Of a stretch of DNA of 64,000 nt, positions 46,163-50,985 are shown piece by piece (the first letter of the stretch is position 1; every line of letters begins with the position of its first letter). The notes under the pieces were generated by a model. It searched no databases and was not told the origin of the DNA. It was given only the letters and a program-made list of their open reading frames with translations. A program made the position numbers and the translations under genes. Origin of the DNA: the human T2T-CHM13v2.0 reference genome, Homo sapiens; assembly GCF_009914755.1 (NCBI RefSeq), contig NC_060930.1. One strand, given 5' to 3'.

Positions 46163-47787
46163 TTTCATGAGTTTTTATGCTTGCAATTCAGATTAATAAG
46201 TGAATGACAGTGAGAATTCAATTCTCCAATGCCTACTCTCATAATCTAAAGAAAGCAAGGCAGAAGTGTTTTCCTGAAAGGAAGAATCTTTGTTTTTAGT
46301 TTTTTAAAGATTAGGTTTACTGGATGTCAGAAAAATATGTTTACATTAAGGCAACATTGAGTATTGATGATGGTATGTAAGTTCTTAGCTGTCAAGCCTC
46401 TTAAACAGTGTTCTCTGAATTTTACATATGTGAAAAGACATTAATCCTCTTAGACTTTGGGGTTGTTGTGTGAGGCCTAGGAGGAGCACACTAGCAGTGG
46501 CCAGTCTTCTTTAATCAAGAACAGCCTTATACATTCCATGTTATGTGTGCTATGATGTGAAAATATTTGGAAAACTCTCTCTTCCCCCATTGCTGCCAGA
46601 CTTATGGTCTTTCTTTGTTCCCAGGTGGCTGATTTAGGTTCCAGGCAGAATGGAATTGGGTGCCCTGGAAGCCTGAGGTAGATTTGGTACTATGGAGGGT
46701 GCACTTGCTGATATGAAGTTTTATTTTATACAAATCCTGGAGAAGCTAAGTGAGGCCATGTCAGTGTTGCCAGAAGACATGAGAATCATGCCAGATCTCT
46801 GTGGCTTAACATTGGAACATAGTGGTAAGTGCAGCTATATTTGTGTTTCTTAATAGTTGAAAGCCAGGTTTATATAAATAGGAAGAAAGAGTTTGCCATA
46901 GAATTTATGCTTTAGTTGGAGAAAAATGTAAAGTTGTTGATAAATTAGGCTGATTAAAAAATAATGTGAACACTTAAATTACCTTTAATGGAGTGCAGCC
47001 TTGAGAAGAAGATACCACGTGGTCCAAGTCTATATCAAATTTGAGTTTAAAATAGATACTTTCAGAAAAGAATCAAAAGGAAGAAAGTCTTAATGTTCAC
47101 ATTGAGTTAAGGTGATGGCTAGCTTTGGAACTGGAGTTCAGCCAGTAGAAGATGTGTTCAGGTCCTTTTAATCCCAAAAAGTGGATGCGAAATAACCATA
47201 AATATATGTCAGAAGAGTAAAAAAAGCCAGCAAGTTAAGATAGCAACAAAATATGGCTAAAATGAGCATTGCAATGTCCAGGAAAGCATAAACTACACGC
47301 AAAAAAGCTCAAGAATGGGATGACCAACTGAGCAAACAGTGAACTGAAAAGATATGTAAATTATTGTAACAAGTGCTAAATTATAAGTAAGGTCAGAGCA
47401 AATATTGAAACACTTGATGAATATTTTCTACTGCACTTGGAGAAGTTAAATTGATGTCAGGGACTCAGGGACTTAGAATTGGGGAGAATGAAGCAATCAG
47501 AAAGTAAGTACCAGTCAATCATCAGTCAAAAGGGGCTTTGAGGAAATTGATTTATGCTTCTGTAAAGACTTTTGATGGAGGAAGAAACAAAATATAAATT
47601 AAATTATTTGAACACATTATTAAAGGCTTTATTTGTTTTTAACTGATATACGTAATTGTTTAAGATGATGTAAAAATTTTCCAAGTTCGTTTACAATTTA
47701 AAGAGTTTGTATTGTTTAGAAGTCTGTAAAGGATGTGAGAGAAACACTGGGTAATTCTTCTTCATGTATTTTTATTTTCTTTTTTAT

Positions 47788-47950
47788 GTAAACAACATAA
47801 ATTTATTGCTTACAGTTCTGGAGGCTGGGAAGTTCAAGATCAAGGTACCAGCAAATTTCATTACCTGGTAAGCATTCATTTCTTATGGATGGTGCCTTCT
47901 GTGTGTCCGGTGTAAAGGGCAAAACAGGCTCCCTTTCCTCAAGCCTCTTG
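47788..47950 (+). mobile_element. MaLR (MLT1/MST-like) LTR fragment inside the cTAGE retrocopy
   Basis: aatttattgcttacagttctggaggctgggaagttcaagatcaaggt is a MaLR LTR hallmark. Confidence 0.8.
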
Positions 47951-48256
47951 TCATTAAAGCCTGTAAAAATTACAGTAAAAGTATTCAGAATGGGTTAAGC
48001 AATTTGACCGTCAGGAAATTCAATTGAAAAGTGAGGTTCAAAACCTTCCTCAGAAAGTTAAAGTTCTAAATTGTATTGAGAAAATACAATAAAGATTCAC
48101 AGAATATTTATATTAGAATGAATTAATTAAATACAGAACATTTTAAAGGCAACTAAAAAGATCAGCCATGCTCATTAAGTAACAGATACCTACAGAAAAT
48201 GTCTGTCTTTGTCTTGCATTTAAAAATTGATATATCATAGTTATACATAGGCCAAA

Positions 48257-50622
48257 CTTCTTTTTTTATTTATTATACTTTAAGTTTTAGAGTACATGTG
48301 CACAACGTGCAGGTCTGTTACATATGTATACATGTGCCATGTTGGTGTGCTGCACCCAGTAACTCGTCATTTAACATTAGATATAACTCCTAACGCTATC
48401 CCTCCCCCCTCCCCCCACCCCACAACAGGCCCTGGCATGTGATGTTCCCCTTCCTGTGACCATGTGTTCTCATTGTTCAATTCCCACCTATGAGTGAGAA
48501 CATGCGGTGTTTGGTTTTTTGTCCTTGTGATAGTTTGCTGAGAATGATGGTTTCCAGCTTCATCCATGTCCCTACAAAGGAAATGAACTCATCATTTTTT
48601 ATGGCTGCATAGTATTCCATGGTGTATATGTGCCATATTTTCTTAATCCAGTCTATCATTGTTGGACATTTGGGTTGGTTCCAAGTCTTTGCTATTGTGA
48701 ATAGTACTGCAATAAACATGCATGTGCATGTGTCTTTACAGCAGCATGATTTATAATCCTTTGGGTATATACTCAGTAATGGGATAGCTGGGTCAAATGG
48801 TATTTCTAGTTCTAGATGCCTGAGGAATCGCCACACCAACTTCCACAATGGTTGAACTAGTTTACAGTCCCACCAACAGTGTAAAAGTGTTCCTATTTCT
48901 CCACATCCTCTCCAGCACCTGTTGTTTCCTGACTTTTTTTTTTTTTTTTTTTTGAGACGGAGTCTCGCTCTGTCGCCCAGGCTGGAGTGCAGTGGCGCGA
49001 TCTCGGCTCACTGCAAGCTCCGCCTCCCGGGTTCACGCCATTCTCCTGCCTCAGCCTCCCGAGTAGCTGGGACTACAGGCGCCCGCTACCACGCCCGGCT
49101 AATTTTTTGTATTTTTAGTAGAGACGGGGTCTCGATCTCCTGACCTCGTGATCCGCCCGCCTCGGCCTCCCAAAGTGCTGGGATTACAGGCGTGAGCCAC
49201 CACGCCCGGCCTGTTTCCTGACTTTTTAATGATCGTCATTCTAACTGGTGTGAAATGGTATCTCACTGTGGTTTTGATTTGCATTTCTCTGATGGCCAGT
49301 GATGATGAGCATTTTTTCATGTGTCTTTTGGCTGCATAAATGTCTTGTTTTGAGAAGTGTCTGTTCATGTCCTTCACCCACTTTTTGATGGGGTTGTTTG
49401 TTTTTTTCTTGTAAATTTGTTTGAGTTCATTGTAGATTCTGGATATTAGCCCTTTGTCAGATGAGTAGGTTGCAAAAATTTTCTCCCATTCTGTAGGTTG
49501 CCTATTGACTCTGATGGTAGTTTCTTTTGCTGTGCAGAAGCTCTTTAGTTTAATTAGATCCCATTTGTCAATTTTGGCTTTTGTTGCCATTGCTTTTGGT
49601 GTTTTAGACATGAAGTCCTTGCCCATGCCTATGTCCTGAATGGTATTGCCTAGGTTTTGTTCTAGGGTTTTTCTGGTTTTAGGTCTAACATTGAAGTCTT
49701 TAATCCATCTTGAATTAATTTTTGTATAAGGTGTAAGGAGGGGATCCAGTTTCAGCTTTCTCCATATGGCTAGCCAGTTTTCCCAGCACCATTTATTAAA
49801 TAGGGAATCCTTTCCCCATTGCTTATTTTTGTCAGATTTGTCAAAGATTAGATAGCTGTAGATATGTGGCGTTATTTCTGAGGGCTCTGTTCTGTTCCAT
49901 TGGTCTATATCTCTGTTTTGGTACCAGTACCATGCTGTTTTGGTTACTGTAGCCTTGTAGTATAGTTTGAAGTCAGGTAGTGTGATGCCTCCAGCTTTGT
50001 TCTTTTGGCTTAGGATTGACTTGGCAATGTGGGCTCTTTTTTGGTTCCATATGAACTTTAAAGTACTTTTTTCCAATTCTGTGAAGAAAGTCATTGGTAG
50101 CTTGATGGGGATGGCGCTGAATCTATAAATTACCTTTGGCAGTATGGCCATTTTCACAATATTGATTCTCCCTACACATGAGCATGGAATGTTCTTCCAT
50201 TTGTATCCTCTTTTATTTCATTGAGCAGTGGTCTGTAGTTCTCCTTGAAGAGGTCCTTCACATCCCTTGTAAGTTGGATTCCTAGGTATTTTATTCTCTT
50301 TGAAGCAATTGTGAATGGGAGTTCACTCATGATTTGGCTCTCTGTTTGTCTGTTATTGGTGTATAAGAATACTTGTGATTTTTGCACATTGATTTTGTAT
50401 CCTGAGACTTTGCTGAAGTTGCTTATCAGCTTAAGGAGATTTTGGGCTGAGACGATGGGGTTTTCTAGATATACAATCATGTCATCTGCAAGCAGGGGCA
50501 CTTTGACTTCCTCTTTTTCTAATTGAATACCCTTTATTTCTTTCTCCTGCCTGATTGCCCTGGCCAGAACTTCCAACACTATGTTGAATAGGAGTGGTGA
50601 GAGAGGGCATCCCTGTCTTGTG
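48257..50622 (-). mobile_element. L1PA (PA4/5-like) 5'-truncated ~2.1 kb, TSD tacataggccaaa
   Basis: Well-preserved ORF2 RT and C-terminal ORFs (50172-50627, 49099-50157). TSD at ~48244-48256 and ~50623-50635. Confidence 0.95.
48934..49211 (-). mobile_element. Young AluY with a 23-bp internal deletion, inserted in L1PA
   Basis: Near-consensus AluY with CpGs retained. TSD tgtttcctgacttttt. Confidence 0.95.
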
Positions 50623-50781
50623 TACATAGGCCAAAATTCTTAAAGAAAAATTGGAAAAAATTACTTGTTCCTATCAAAGACTCACTATTTCCCATATTTA
50701 AAAAGCTTATAGTTATTGACTTATAGTTCAGTTGAACCTCAATGAGGTTCAATGAGTTAGGAAAATCCATATGAAAGACCA

Positions 50782-50985
50782 GAGATCAGCTAATTTTCCC
50801 CACAAGAGCCAGATGGAAAATAGTTCAGGTTTTGCAGGCCAGGAAGCAAAATTTAAATATTATGAAATAATTAAATATTAAATATTATGAAAATAAGTAA
50901 ATAAAATTTAAATATTATGAAACTATAAATATTAAATATTAGGCAACAAGACAGAAAAATTCCCACATAATGTTCTATTGGCTAA
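50782..50985 (+). mobile_element. MER58-like hAT/Charlie DNA-transposon fragment with internal AT-rich tandem repeat
   Basis: gatcagctaattttcc..agagccagatggaaaatagttcaggttttgcaggcca resembles the MER58 5' end. Confidence 0.5.

What the first reader, a model, noticed from the sequence alone, without database searches (positions are those of the whole stretch)
46692..50790. Cryptic, very ancient cTAGE5/MIA2 retrocopy hidden between OR2W1 and OR2P1P
Seen: the ORF track shows nothing here, but reading across stops and frameshifts gives roughly 400 codons collinear with the cTAGE5 N-terminus, TM region and coiled coils. Examples: IVESQVYINRKKEFA ~ SVRSRLYVGREKKLA; MASFGTGVQPVEDVFRSF*SQ ~ [37 protein letters not shown] ~ KIAIKDALNENSQLQES; QVLNYK ~ QVLNDK; KGALRKLIYA; ISHA..TYRK. 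Known: cTAGE5 is an ER-exit-site TANGO1 partner, and the recognised CTAGE retrocopies are mostly young primate copies. Inference: this copy is far more diverged, with many conservative substitutions, and predates a MaLR insertion. It may be an early eutherian retrogene that evolved as a protein before dying. I do not recall it being annotated.
Basis: partly seen in the sequence, partly recalled or inferred. Interest (0 to 1): 0.8.

Follow-up and report, generated by a model that had tools for sequence, protein, structure and literature searches.

The report
Ancient decayed cTAGE5/MIA2 processed pseudogene
A badly decayed, intron-free copy of the ER-export gene cTAGE5/MIA2 really does lie between two smell-receptor genes; it is a dead pseudogene older than the placental radiation that was copied along with its neighbours, so it helps date the cluster but is otherwise ordinary.

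Summary
A frameshift-aware alignment of a tool-derived CTAGE-family protein to the window, with transposable elements (TEs) removed, covers residues 1-488 over window 46692-50795. It has 435 codons, 153 identical, 16 stops and 14 frameshifts, and scores 215. One hundred protein shuffles score 38 +/- 4. The parent gene on chr14 spreads the same residues over at least 14 exon blocks and about 51 kb, so this is a processed copy of the short (cTAGE5) transcript. Its 5'UTR is included and its proline-rich 3' half is missing. Two later insertions split it: an LTR-like repeat of about 344 bp and a 5'-truncated L1 carrying an Alu. Three paralogous copies lie in the same OR cluster. Lesions shared between copies show it was already broken before those duplications. 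Trees and polarised sites place the retroposition on the eutherian stem. A primate age is rejected (AU p 0.004). A pre-marsupial age is not rejected (p 0.09). I found no evidence for a functional retrogene phase. RefSeq lists no pseudogene here, but exon 2 of the lncRNA OR2W1-AS1 is made from it. About 20 similarly decayed cTAGE5-like copies lie elsewhere in the genome, so it is one of many. Interest is low to moderate.

The parts
46566..46691 (+). 5'UTR-derived part of the retrocopy (approximate start)
   Evidence: Paralog B aligns about 150 nt upstream of its ATG to the chr14 first exon of the short isoform: score 85 against 100 shuffles at 21.9 +/- 2.8 (max 32). Paralog D scores 46 (max 30). 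The window copy alone is not significant (29, max 30), but it is homologous to B and D from 46406/46415 onward. The start coordinate is interpolated from B.
46692..47612 (+). Coding-derived part 1: start codon, TM segment with a shared deletion of about 32 nt, first coiled coil (family-protein residues 1-342)
   Evidence: Frameshift-aware alignments and the DNA alignment with the parent-type CDS and the paralogs.
47613..47956 (-). Later insertion of about 344 bp, absent from paralogs B, C and D. It contains a dispersed repeat (47789-47949). The MaLR-LTR label and the strand are from recall only.
   Evidence: Paralog alignments jump from 47612 to 47957. Query positions 1098-1258 have more than 30 copies genome-wide at 75-98% identity. 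The aligner jumps over 47613-47960.
47957..48261 (+). Coding-derived part 2 (residues about 343-433), ending in the left copy of the L1 target-site duplication (48245-48261)
   Evidence: The target-site duplication was read.
48262..50623 (-). 5'-truncated L1 with an Alu inserted in it (about 48933-49210, with its own flanking duplication). Not part of the pseudogene.
   Evidence: The minus-strand ORF 50172-50639 matches RVT_1 at E 1e-17. Long minus-strand ORFs are listed. A 17-nt direct repeat lies at 48245-48261 and 50624-50640. The block is absent from the paralogs at this site. The Alu label is from recall.
50624..50795 (+). Coding-derived part 3 (residues about 434-488, end of the second coiled coil)
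   Evidence: This part is homologous to paralogs B and C.
50796..51139 (+). Tail shared with paralogs B and C, with no detectable similarity to the parent's C-terminal half, 3' flank or next intron
   Evidence: Paralog homology reaches 51139. The tests against protein residues 496-806 and against the intron and the 3' CDS score within their shuffle ranges.
46625..46824 (+). Exon 2 of lncRNA OR2W1-AS1, made of 67 nt of 5'UTR-derived and 133 nt of coding-derived pseudogene sequence
   Evidence: Coordinates come from the hub's RefSeq table. AG precedes 46625 and a GTAAGT donor follows 46824. The GTAAGT is present in all four copies.
47816..47867 (+). Exon 3 of OR2W1-AS1, lying inside the LTR-like insertion
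   Evidence: Coordinates come from the hub's RefSeq table. AG and GT flank the exon, and it overlaps the dispersed repeat.

Best explanation
This is a dead processed pseudogene. An mRNA of the short (cTAGE5) isoform of MIA2 was reverse-transcribed and inserted into the MHC-linked OR2 cluster. The mRNA carried the 5'UTR, start codon, TM segment and both coiled coils. The insertion happened on the lineage leading to placental mammals, most likely after the split from marsupials and before the sampled placental orders diverged. The copy was already disabled while still single-copy. It was then duplicated along with OR2 gene blocks into four copies related as ((A,(B,C)),D), where A is the window copy. 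Copy A later received an LTR-like insertion and an L1 carrying an Alu. It encodes nothing today. Its only current activity on record is passive: its 5' end supplies exon 2 of the annotated lncRNA OR2W1-AS1, and the LTR-like insertion supplies exon 3.

Shown: homology, lack of introns, the paralogs, the shared lesions, and the relative order of events. Inferred: absolute ages, a single insertion event, and why the 3' half is missing.
For: Homology: alignment score 215 against shuffles at 38 +/- 4. Block shuffles at 49 +/- 4 show the signal lies in collinearity. The three best of 157 tblastn HSPs in the window lie in the interval.

Processed origin: the parent's residues 1-486 map to 14 separate exon blocks from C14:33455940 to 33506643, about 51 kb. 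They are contiguous here in about 1.4 kb once the insertions are removed.

Short isoform: the alignment starts at the short isoform's own first exon, and the 5'UTR is alignable in copies B and D.

Parent lineage: the four copies score 790-902 (summed) against eutherian MIA2/cTAGE5 orthologs. They score 604-727 against young primate CTAGE genes, 686-709 against turtle and gharial, and about 180-230 (noise) against the ~30%-identity MIA3-like group.

Pseudogene before duplication:
- A deletion of about 32 nt in the TM segment is present in all four copies.
- A stop at residue 337 is shared by A, B and D.
- TGA stops at residues 390 and 463 are shared by A, B and C.
- Deletions of 36 nt and 21 nt are shared by A, B and C only.
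- A=D-versus-parent changes (235) outnumber the changes private to A (163) or to D (207).

Age:
- K2P distances are B-C 0.08, A-B/C 0.34, A/B/C-D 0.56-0.61, and copies to parent-type CDS 0.58-0.67.
- The tree built with a group-balanced projection gives (sauropsids,(monotremes,(marsupials,(copies, crown eutherians)))). SH-aLRT support is 91 for copies plus eutherians and 99 for the 15 crown eutherian rows without the copies. The copies leave the eutherian stem 0.074 along a stem of 0.074+0.19.
- At 30 eutherian-stem sites, copy D keeps the older state at 9-10 and the derived state at 3-4, under all four projections.
- States shared by D and at least one of A-C are ancestral at 5 sites and derived at 3.
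- At 15 marsupial-derived control sites no marsupial state is shared between copies. Per copy the matches are 0 of 8-14 aligned sites, except 1 for A in the profile projection and 3 (A) and 1 (C) in the wallaby projection.
- The AU test rejects a clade of the copies with anthropoid primates and young CTAGE genes (dlnL 21.8, p 0.004).
Against: - The timing is soft. The AU test does not reject a position outside Theria (dlnL 3.9, p 0.09).
- Placement shifts with the projection reference: base of the eutherians with a carnivore reference, and a trichotomy with marsupials using a gharial reference.
- All trees are 'quick' searches, because the careful search did not finish. The copies are long branches with skewed composition.
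- No named afrotherian, xenarthran or rodent is in the set.
- A 5'-complete but 3'-missing copy is unusual for L1-mediated retroposition. I found no poly(A) remnant and no flanking duplication for the pseudogene itself. The read-through-into-intron idea was not supported.
- In the balanced tree the four copies are not resolved as one clade above 80 support. Their single origin therefore rests on the shared lesions, shared substitutions and shared location.
- The window copy's own 5'UTR match is not significant.
Confidence: 0.85

Rival explanations
1. A retrogene with a functional phase. The copy was expressed as a truncated cTAGE5-like protein (TM plus coiled coils) and evolved under selection for some time before it decayed.
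For: The copy kept its start codon in A, B and C. It has a common stem before duplication. 55% of the aligned codons are positives. Second codon positions are somewhat better conserved against the parent than first or third.
Against: - Lesions are shared across the earliest split: the TM-segment deletion in all four copies, and the stop at residue 337 in A, B and D.
- Changes on the shared branch fall 79/68/88 on codon positions, which is near uniform.
- The excess identity at position 2 is expected from an aligner that maximises amino-acid similarity and from constraint on the parent's own lineage.
- No ORF in the non-TE sequence exceeds 65 aa.
- The Sec23/24-binding proline-rich domain is missing (domain role from passages of PMC3128532).
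Confidence: 0.06
2. The retroposition is older than the marsupial-placental split (therian or mammalian stem).
For: The AU test does not reject it (p 0.09). Copy D scores as well against gharial and turtle MIA2 (241, 229) as against eutherians (204-257). The gharial-projected tree leaves a trichotomy. DNA distances to the parent are about 0.6.
Against: The balanced tree joins the copies to the eutherians (SH-aLRT 91). Three eutherian-stem derived states are shared by D and another copy, whereas no marsupial-derived state is shared between copies at the 15 control sites. Copy D carries 4 of 5 therian-stem derived states.
Confidence: 0.15
3. A member of the recognised primate CTAGE family (the Haplorhini retroposition) that decayed unusually fast.
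For: It belongs to the same parent family, and young CTAGE copies are abundant in this genome.
Against: The AU test rejects the grouping with anthropoid primates and young CTAGE genes (p 0.004). The copies score higher against non-primate orthologs than against young CTAGE genes. They keep pre-eutherian states. Paralog distances up to 0.6 are incompatible with a primate age.
Confidence: 0.01
4. A chance resemblance between AT-rich DNA and a low-complexity coiled-coil protein.
For: Individual HSPs are weak (E 0.002 to 16). Searches from the window's own peptides did not find MIA2.
Against: The score lies about 40 standard deviations above the shuffles. Reversed and block-shuffled controls sit at background. 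Four paralogs align independently. A search from a genuine chr14 exon returned paralog D among its 31 hits. Scores fall in graded fashion with phylogenetic distance.
Confidence: 0.005
5. Copy D is an independent retroposition of the same isoform into the same cluster, not a duplicate of the A/B/C ancestor.
For: D is about as far from A, B and C (0.56-0.61) as each copy is from the parent type. Monophyly is unresolved in the balanced tree. The shared TM-segment 'deletion' ends near an exon junction, so it could reflect an alternative splice donor in the source mRNA (inference).
Against: The copies share cluster and orientation. A and D are 81% identical (95 of 118) over the first 125 alignment columns, against 49-53% to the parent type. 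A=D changes against the parent number 235. D shares the stop at residue 337 with A and B. The copies form one clade with support 94-99 in two other trees.
Confidence: 0.05

Closest known systems
CTAGE gene family (CTAGE1/2, 4, 6, 8, 9, 15 and the CTAGE*P pseudogenes)
   Same: These are also intronless copies of the cTAGE5 transcript of MIA2. In this assembly they appear as long open or nearly open frames at 63-82% identity to a carnivore ortholog.
   Different: [quoted passage not shown] The chr6 copies come from a separate and much older event. They lack the proline-rich half and are thoroughly broken.
MIA2 / cTAGE5 parent gene on chr14
   Same: It is the source of the sequence. The domain order is the same: short N-terminal exon, TM segment, coiled coil 1, coiled coil 2 (domain layout from passages of PMC3128532).
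   Different: The parent is multi-exon over tens of kb, intact, and has the Sec23/24-binding proline-rich domain. Labelling the chr14 locus as MIA2 rests on the names attached to its protein relatives and on my recollection that PNN lies just upstream (Pfam anchor).
Other ancient cTAGE5-like retrocopies in the human genome
   Same: One search lists 24 rows at 22 loci with 27-53% identity to a full-length ortholog. Twenty of those loci carry in-frame stops, and several are contiguous over 200-360 residues (for example C4:179970712-179971620 and C7:12570285-12571301).
   Different: These are dispersed single copies. I did not study them, so their ages, and whether all of them really derive from cTAGE5, are unknown. 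The chr6 copy is the one embedded in, and multiplied with, an OR cluster.
SAR1AP1, the annotated processed pseudogene 6 kb downstream
   Same: It is a processed pseudogene of a COPII-pathway gene in the same inter-OR region (hub RefSeq table).
   Different: It is annotated and on the opposite strand. I did not compare its age. The shared pathway is most likely a coincidence.

Membership tests
Processed pseudogene (retrocopy) of MIA2/cTAGE5 | Significant, collinear similarity to the parent's coding sequence | tested here: met
   Score 215 against shuffles at 38 +/- 4; 435 codons at 35% identity. The three best tblastn HSPs in the window lie in the interval.
Processed pseudogene (retrocopy) of MIA2/cTAGE5 | No introns where the parent has them | tested here: met
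   Fourteen parent exon blocks over about 51 kb are contiguous in the copy. The only interruptions are TE insertions absent from the paralogs.
Processed pseudogene (retrocopy) of MIA2/cTAGE5 | A 3' end with a poly(A) remnant, and flanking target-site duplications | tested here: not met
   The C-terminal half and 3' end are undetectable in all four copies. No flanking duplication of the pseudogene itself was identified. At this age both are expected to be eroded, so this counts only weakly against membership.
Processed pseudogene (retrocopy) of MIA2/cTAGE5 | Located away from the parent locus, with a disabled reading frame | tested here: met
   The copy is on chr6 and the parent on chr14. It has 16-18 stops and 11-14 frameshifts.
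Recognised CTAGE family (Haplorhini-derived) | Descent from the retroposition in the Haplorhini ancestor | tested here: not met
   AU p 0.004 against a clade with anthropoid primates and young CTAGE genes. The copies branch below the crown eutherians.
Recognised CTAGE family (Haplorhini-derived) | Full-length copy including the proline-rich domain | tested here: not met
   Residues 496-806 give scores of 34-40, equal to the shuffles.
Functional retrogene (past or present) | Intact ORF, or evidence of purifying selection on the copy's own lineage | tested here: not met
   No ORF in the non-TE sequence exceeds 65 aa. Lesions are shared across the earliest duplication. The codon-position pattern on the shared branch is near uniform. 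A formal branch-model dN/dS was not run.
Functional retrogene (past or present) | An intact ortholog in another species | not testable with these tools
   No non-human mammalian genome is searchable here.

The most novel reading that the evidence does not exclude
The retrocopy was, for a time in stem eutherians, an expressed truncated cTAGE5 (membrane anchor plus TANGO1-binding coiled coils, without the COPII-binding proline-rich tail). A remnant of that history may survive either as an intact ortholog in some non-primate mammal or as a regulatory role for the pseudogene-derived exon of OR2W1-AS1 over the neighbouring OR genes.
Probability: 0.05. Interest if true: 0.55.

Novelty: new member of a known kind. 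Interest (0 to 1): 0.25.

Why it matters
It matters modestly, in four ways.

1. cTAGE5 mRNA was being retroposed long before the Haplorhini event credited with founding the CTAGE family, and apparently many times.
2. Because the fossil was inserted once and then multiplied with the OR2 blocks, it gives an internal clock for the MHC-linked OR cluster. The order is: insertion on the eutherian stem, a first duplication soon after, a second at K2P about 0.34, and a last one at about 0.08.
3. It explains where two of the four exons of the annotated lncRNA OR2W1-AS1 come from: a pseudogene 5' end and an LTR-like insertion.
4. It shows what standard pipelines miss. Per-HSP E-values here would be far from significant genome-wide.

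None of this changes what is known about MIA2 or cTAGE5 function.

Tried and rejected
- Searching the assembly from the window's own peptides found only the chr6 paralogs. I used the 44-aa N-terminus and a 56-aa piece read with X at stops. The first-look filter is too coarse for this divergence.
- PDB sequence searches found nothing. Pfam has no family for the coiled-coil region; the only hit was a sub-threshold LMBR1 match. Rfam found nothing in 46000-51500.
- Protein-anchored codon columns proved unreliable for comparing paralogs. A-B came out at 56% there against 73% in a direct DNA alignment, so I dropped them for distances.
- Single-reference projections of the copies are biased towards the reference. 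I replaced them with a group-balanced profile.
- The careful tree search did not finish in time. All reported trees are quick searches.
- Extension of copy C to residue 598 through jumps was not reproduced by the dedicated C-terminal test, so I treat it as spurious.
- Read-through into the next intron, as an explanation for the missing 3' half, scored within the shuffle range.
I used a coordinates-only search instead.
- Zhang & Su 2014 could not be read. Literature searches for CTAGE or MGEA6 together with OR2W1 or the MHC-linked OR cluster, and for OR2W1-AS1 (one unrelated paper), found no description of this pseudogene.

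
Full report
WHAT IS THERE

The interval has no long ORF outside its transposable elements (TEs). The longest non-TE frames are 58-65 aa.

The stretch 48251-50625 is not part of the feature. It holds long minus-strand ORFs, one of which matches reverse transcriptase (RVT_1, E 1e-17). It is bounded by a 17-nt direct repeat at 48245-48261 and 50624-50640. 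I read it as a 5'-truncated L1 carrying an Alu; the Alu label is from recall.

GETTING A REAL REFERENCE

- Searches from the window's own peptides found only nearby chr6 paralogs.
- A Pfam pinin hit placed PNN at C14:33.3678 Mb. I recall, without a tool, that MIA2 lies just downstream, so I fetched 200 kb there.
- tblastx of the non-repeat window pieces against it gave seven weak, same-strand hits in the same order on both sequences. Each lies in a short ORF preceded by a polypyrimidine tract and AG, which is the look of an exon.
- One such exon, searched against the whole assembly, returned 31 hits. They included intronless copies with 803-863-aa open frames and, at E 0.058, one of the chr6 OR-cluster paralogs.
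- The chr13 copy gives a 775-aa ORF and the chr18 copy a 745-aa ORF.
- Database sources call the relatives of this ORF cTAGE family member, CTAGE5, melanoma inhibitory activity protein 2, or MIA SH3 domain ER export factor 2 (861 proteins at E<=1e-10).
- Pfam and PDB have nothing for it.

IS THE SIMILARITY MORE THAN CHANCE?

Yes. tblastn of the 775-aa ORF against the entire window gave 157 HSPs (high-scoring segment pairs). The top three (E 0.002, 0.025, 0.26) and one more of the top six (E 0.83) are in the interval, on the + strand, in protein order.

A frameshift-aware local alignment on the TE-stripped interval covers protein residues 1-488 against window 46692-50795. It has 435 codons, 153 identical, 239 positive, 16 stops and 14 frameshifts. 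The score is 215 after the L1 junction is set correctly.

| Control | Score |
|---|---|
| 100 protein shuffles | 37.9 +/- 4.4 (max 61) |
| Reversed protein | 45 |
| Reverse-complement DNA | 33 |
| 60 shuffles of 20-aa blocks | 49.4 +/- 4.1 |

The signal is therefore collinearity and not coiled-coil composition. On raw, unmasked DNA, an aligner that allows long jumps finds the same path and itself skips 47613-47960 and 48203-50629.

PROCESSED ORIGIN, FROM THE SHORT ISOFORM

On chr14, residues 1-486 are spread over 14 mapped exon blocks between 33455940 and 33506643, and further exons run to 33538882. In the window the same residues are contiguous in about 1.4 kb once the two insertions are removed.

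The alignment starts at the first codon of the short isoform's own first exon. About 150 nt of its 5'UTR is still alignable in paralog B (score 85; shuffles 21.9 +/- 2.8) and in paralog D (46; max shuffle 30). The window copy alone is not significant here (29; max shuffle 30).

The C-terminal, proline-rich half is undetectable downstream of all four copies. Scores of 34-40 equal the shuffles at 35-44. In passages of PMC3128532, that domain (residues 651-804 of the 804-aa protein) is the part that binds Sec23/24. A copy that is 5'-complete but lacks the 3' end is odd for L1-mediated retroposition. A read-through-into-intron explanation was not supported, so this remains unexplained.

FOUR COPIES AND THEIR HISTORY

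The unit recurs three more times in the same OR cluster:

| Copy | Location | Raw-DNA alignment score to the family protein |
|---|---|---|
| A | the window | 204 |
| B | C6:28998934-29002080 | 162 |
| C | C6:29070222-29073660 | 139 |
| D | C6:29098690-29100150 | 189 |

Each copy carries its own TE insertions. The window's L1/Alu block and the stretch 47613-47956 are absent from the others. That stretch contains a repeat with more than 30 copies genome-wide.

Lesions shared between copies:
- A deletion of about 32 nt in the TM segment, in all four copies.
- A stop at residue 337, in A, B and D.
- TGA stops at residues 390 and 463, in A, B and C.
- Deletions of 36 nt and 21 nt, in A, B and C but not D.

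The topology is therefore ((A,(B,C)),D), and the copy was already broken before it multiplied.

| Pair | K2P distance |
|---|---|
| B-C | 0.076 |
| A-B/C | 0.338 |
| A/B/C-D | 0.56-0.61 |
| each copy to the parent-type CDS | 0.58-0.67 |

Three-taxon patterns give 235 changes shared by A and D against the parent type, 163 private to A and 207 private to D. That indicates a real common stem before the first duplication.

Copies B, C and D each start 8-13 kb 3' of a + strand OR gene. Copy A sits between OR2W1 and OR2P1P (and the hub table). The pseudogene evidently travelled with the OR2 blocks.

WHICH PARENT, AND WHEN

Scoring the four copies against 118 references gave summed scores as follows:

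| Reference group | Summed score |
|---|---|
| Eutherian MIA2/cTAGE5 orthologs | 790-902 |
| Young primate CTAGE genes | 604-727 |
| Turtle and gharial (names) | 686-709 |
| 55-58%-identity tier | about 600 |
| ~30%-identity MIA3-like group | about 180-230 (noise) |

The source is therefore the MIA2/cTAGE5 lineage and not MIA3.

One search supplied platypus, echidna and five marsupials. The tree placement depends on how the broken copies are translated:
- With a carnivore reference they sit at the base of the eutherians (no marsupials in that set).
- With a gharial reference they form a trichotomy with marsupials and eutherians.
- With a group-balanced profile the tree is (sauropsids,(monotremes,(marsupials,(copies, crown eutherians)))). 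Support is 91 for copies plus eutherians and 99 for the 15 crown eutherian rows alone. The copies branch 0.074 along a stem of 0.264.

Polarised sites agree with the balanced tree:
- At 30 sites that changed on the eutherian stem, copy D keeps the older state at 9-10 and the newer at 3-4, under all four projections.
- States shared by D and another copy are old at five sites and new at three.
- At the 15 marsupial-derived control sites no marsupial state is shared between copies.

AU tests reject a primate-age position (dlnL 21.8, p 0.004) but do not reject a position outside Theria (dlnL 3.9, p 0.09).

My inference uses dates from general knowledge. The insertion occurred on the eutherian stem, more than about 100 and perhaps about 140 million years ago. 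The A/(B,C) split fell near the placental radiation, and the B/C split fell within primates.

Caveats:
- All trees are quick searches only.
- The copies are long branches with skewed composition.
- No named afrotherian, xenarthran or rodent is in the set.

WAS IT EVER A WORKING RETROGENE?

I found nothing that says so.
- Lesions cross the earliest split between copies.
- Changes on the shared branch fall 79/68/88 on codon positions 1/2/3.
- The domain that binds COPII is missing.
- The slightly better conservation of second positions against the parent is what an amino-acid-maximising aligner, plus constraint on the parent's own lineage, would produce.

A formal branch test, and other species' orthologs, were out of reach.

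WHAT IT DOES NOW

RefSeq's table lists no pseudogene here, but exon 2 of the lncRNA OR2W1-AS1 (46625-46824) is 67 nt of 5'UTR-derived plus 133 nt of coding-derived pseudogene sequence. An AG lies before it, and the GTAAGT donor after it is present in all four copies. Exon 3 (47816-47867) lies in the LTR-like insertion. Rfam finds no RNA family in 46000-51500. The only paper that mentions OR2W1-AS1 is an unrelated Mendelian-randomisation study (listing only).

NOVELTY

In a passage of PMC4949931, citing Zhang & Su 2014 (not held), the CTAGE family is said to begin with a retroposition in the Haplorhini ancestor. The chr6 copies are a separate and far older event. I found no paper linking CTAGE or MGEA6 to this OR cluster. 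I could not consult GENCODE or pseudogene catalogues.

The kind of object is ordinary, however, and it is not alone. A full-length search of the assembly (59 rows, with a stricter first look) broke down as follows:
- 23 rows of young copies.
- 12 chr14 exon rows.
- 24 rows at 22 other loci with 27-53% identity. Twenty of those loci carry in-frame stops, and several are contiguous over 200-360 residues.

The chr6 copies themselves were not in that list.

VERDICT

The feature is real. It is an ancient processed pseudogene of cTAGE5/MIA2 and a new member of a known kind. Its value lies in dating the OR cluster and in explaining the exons of one lncRNA. Interest is 0.25.

Noticed in passing
G000 C4:179970712-179971620, C21:36588637-36589512, C7:12570285-12571301, C2:16204902-16205618, C1:97703515-97704481, C20:8978052-8978669 and others: Twenty-two further loci (24 rows) match a full-length MIA2/cTAGE5 ortholog at 27-53% identity. 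Twenty of them carry in-frame stops, and several are contiguous over 200-360 residues. They look like other ancient retrocopies, which suggests cTAGE5 mRNA was retroposed repeatedly over mammalian history.
   Followed up: no
window 57096-59930 (-): SAR1AP1, a processed pseudogene of another COPII/ER-exit gene (SAR1A), lies 6 kb from this cTAGE5 pseudogene. Exon 4 of OR2W1-AS1 (58985-59429) overlaps it, so three of the lncRNA's four exons lie in pseudogene or repeat-derived sequence. The shared pathway is probably a coincidence.
   Followed up: no
window 46812-46830 and the equivalent site in copies B, C and D: The splice donor used by OR2W1-AS1 exon 2 (G|GTAAGT) arises from three codons of the former TM segment and is identical in all four copies. 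I did not check whether the other copies are also spliced into transcripts.
   Followed up: partly
window 50850-50960: An AT-rich stretch with several near-repeats of a motif of about 13-20 nt (aaatattatgaaa...), followed by an A-run at about 50985-50997, just beyond the end of detectable cTAGE5 homology. It could be a decayed poly(A)-like tail or simple low-complexity DNA.
   Followed up: no
G000 C13:49111212-49113620, C10:131035046-131037442, C18:22601816-22604218: Several young intronless CTAGE copies keep full-length or nearly full-length open frames (745-863 aa). The chr13 one reads 775 aa from ATG to stop.
   Followed up: partly
window 51020-51800: More L1 and Alu sequence lies directly downstream of the pseudogene tail (strong tblastx matches to many chr14 repeats). 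This limits any search for the original 3' end of the retrocopy.
   Followed up: no
G000 C6:28998934 versus C6:29070222 (copies B and C): B and C differ by only K2P 0.076, and their N-terminal parts translate identically. This points to a comparatively recent duplication, or gene conversion, of the OR2J-type block.
   Followed up: partly
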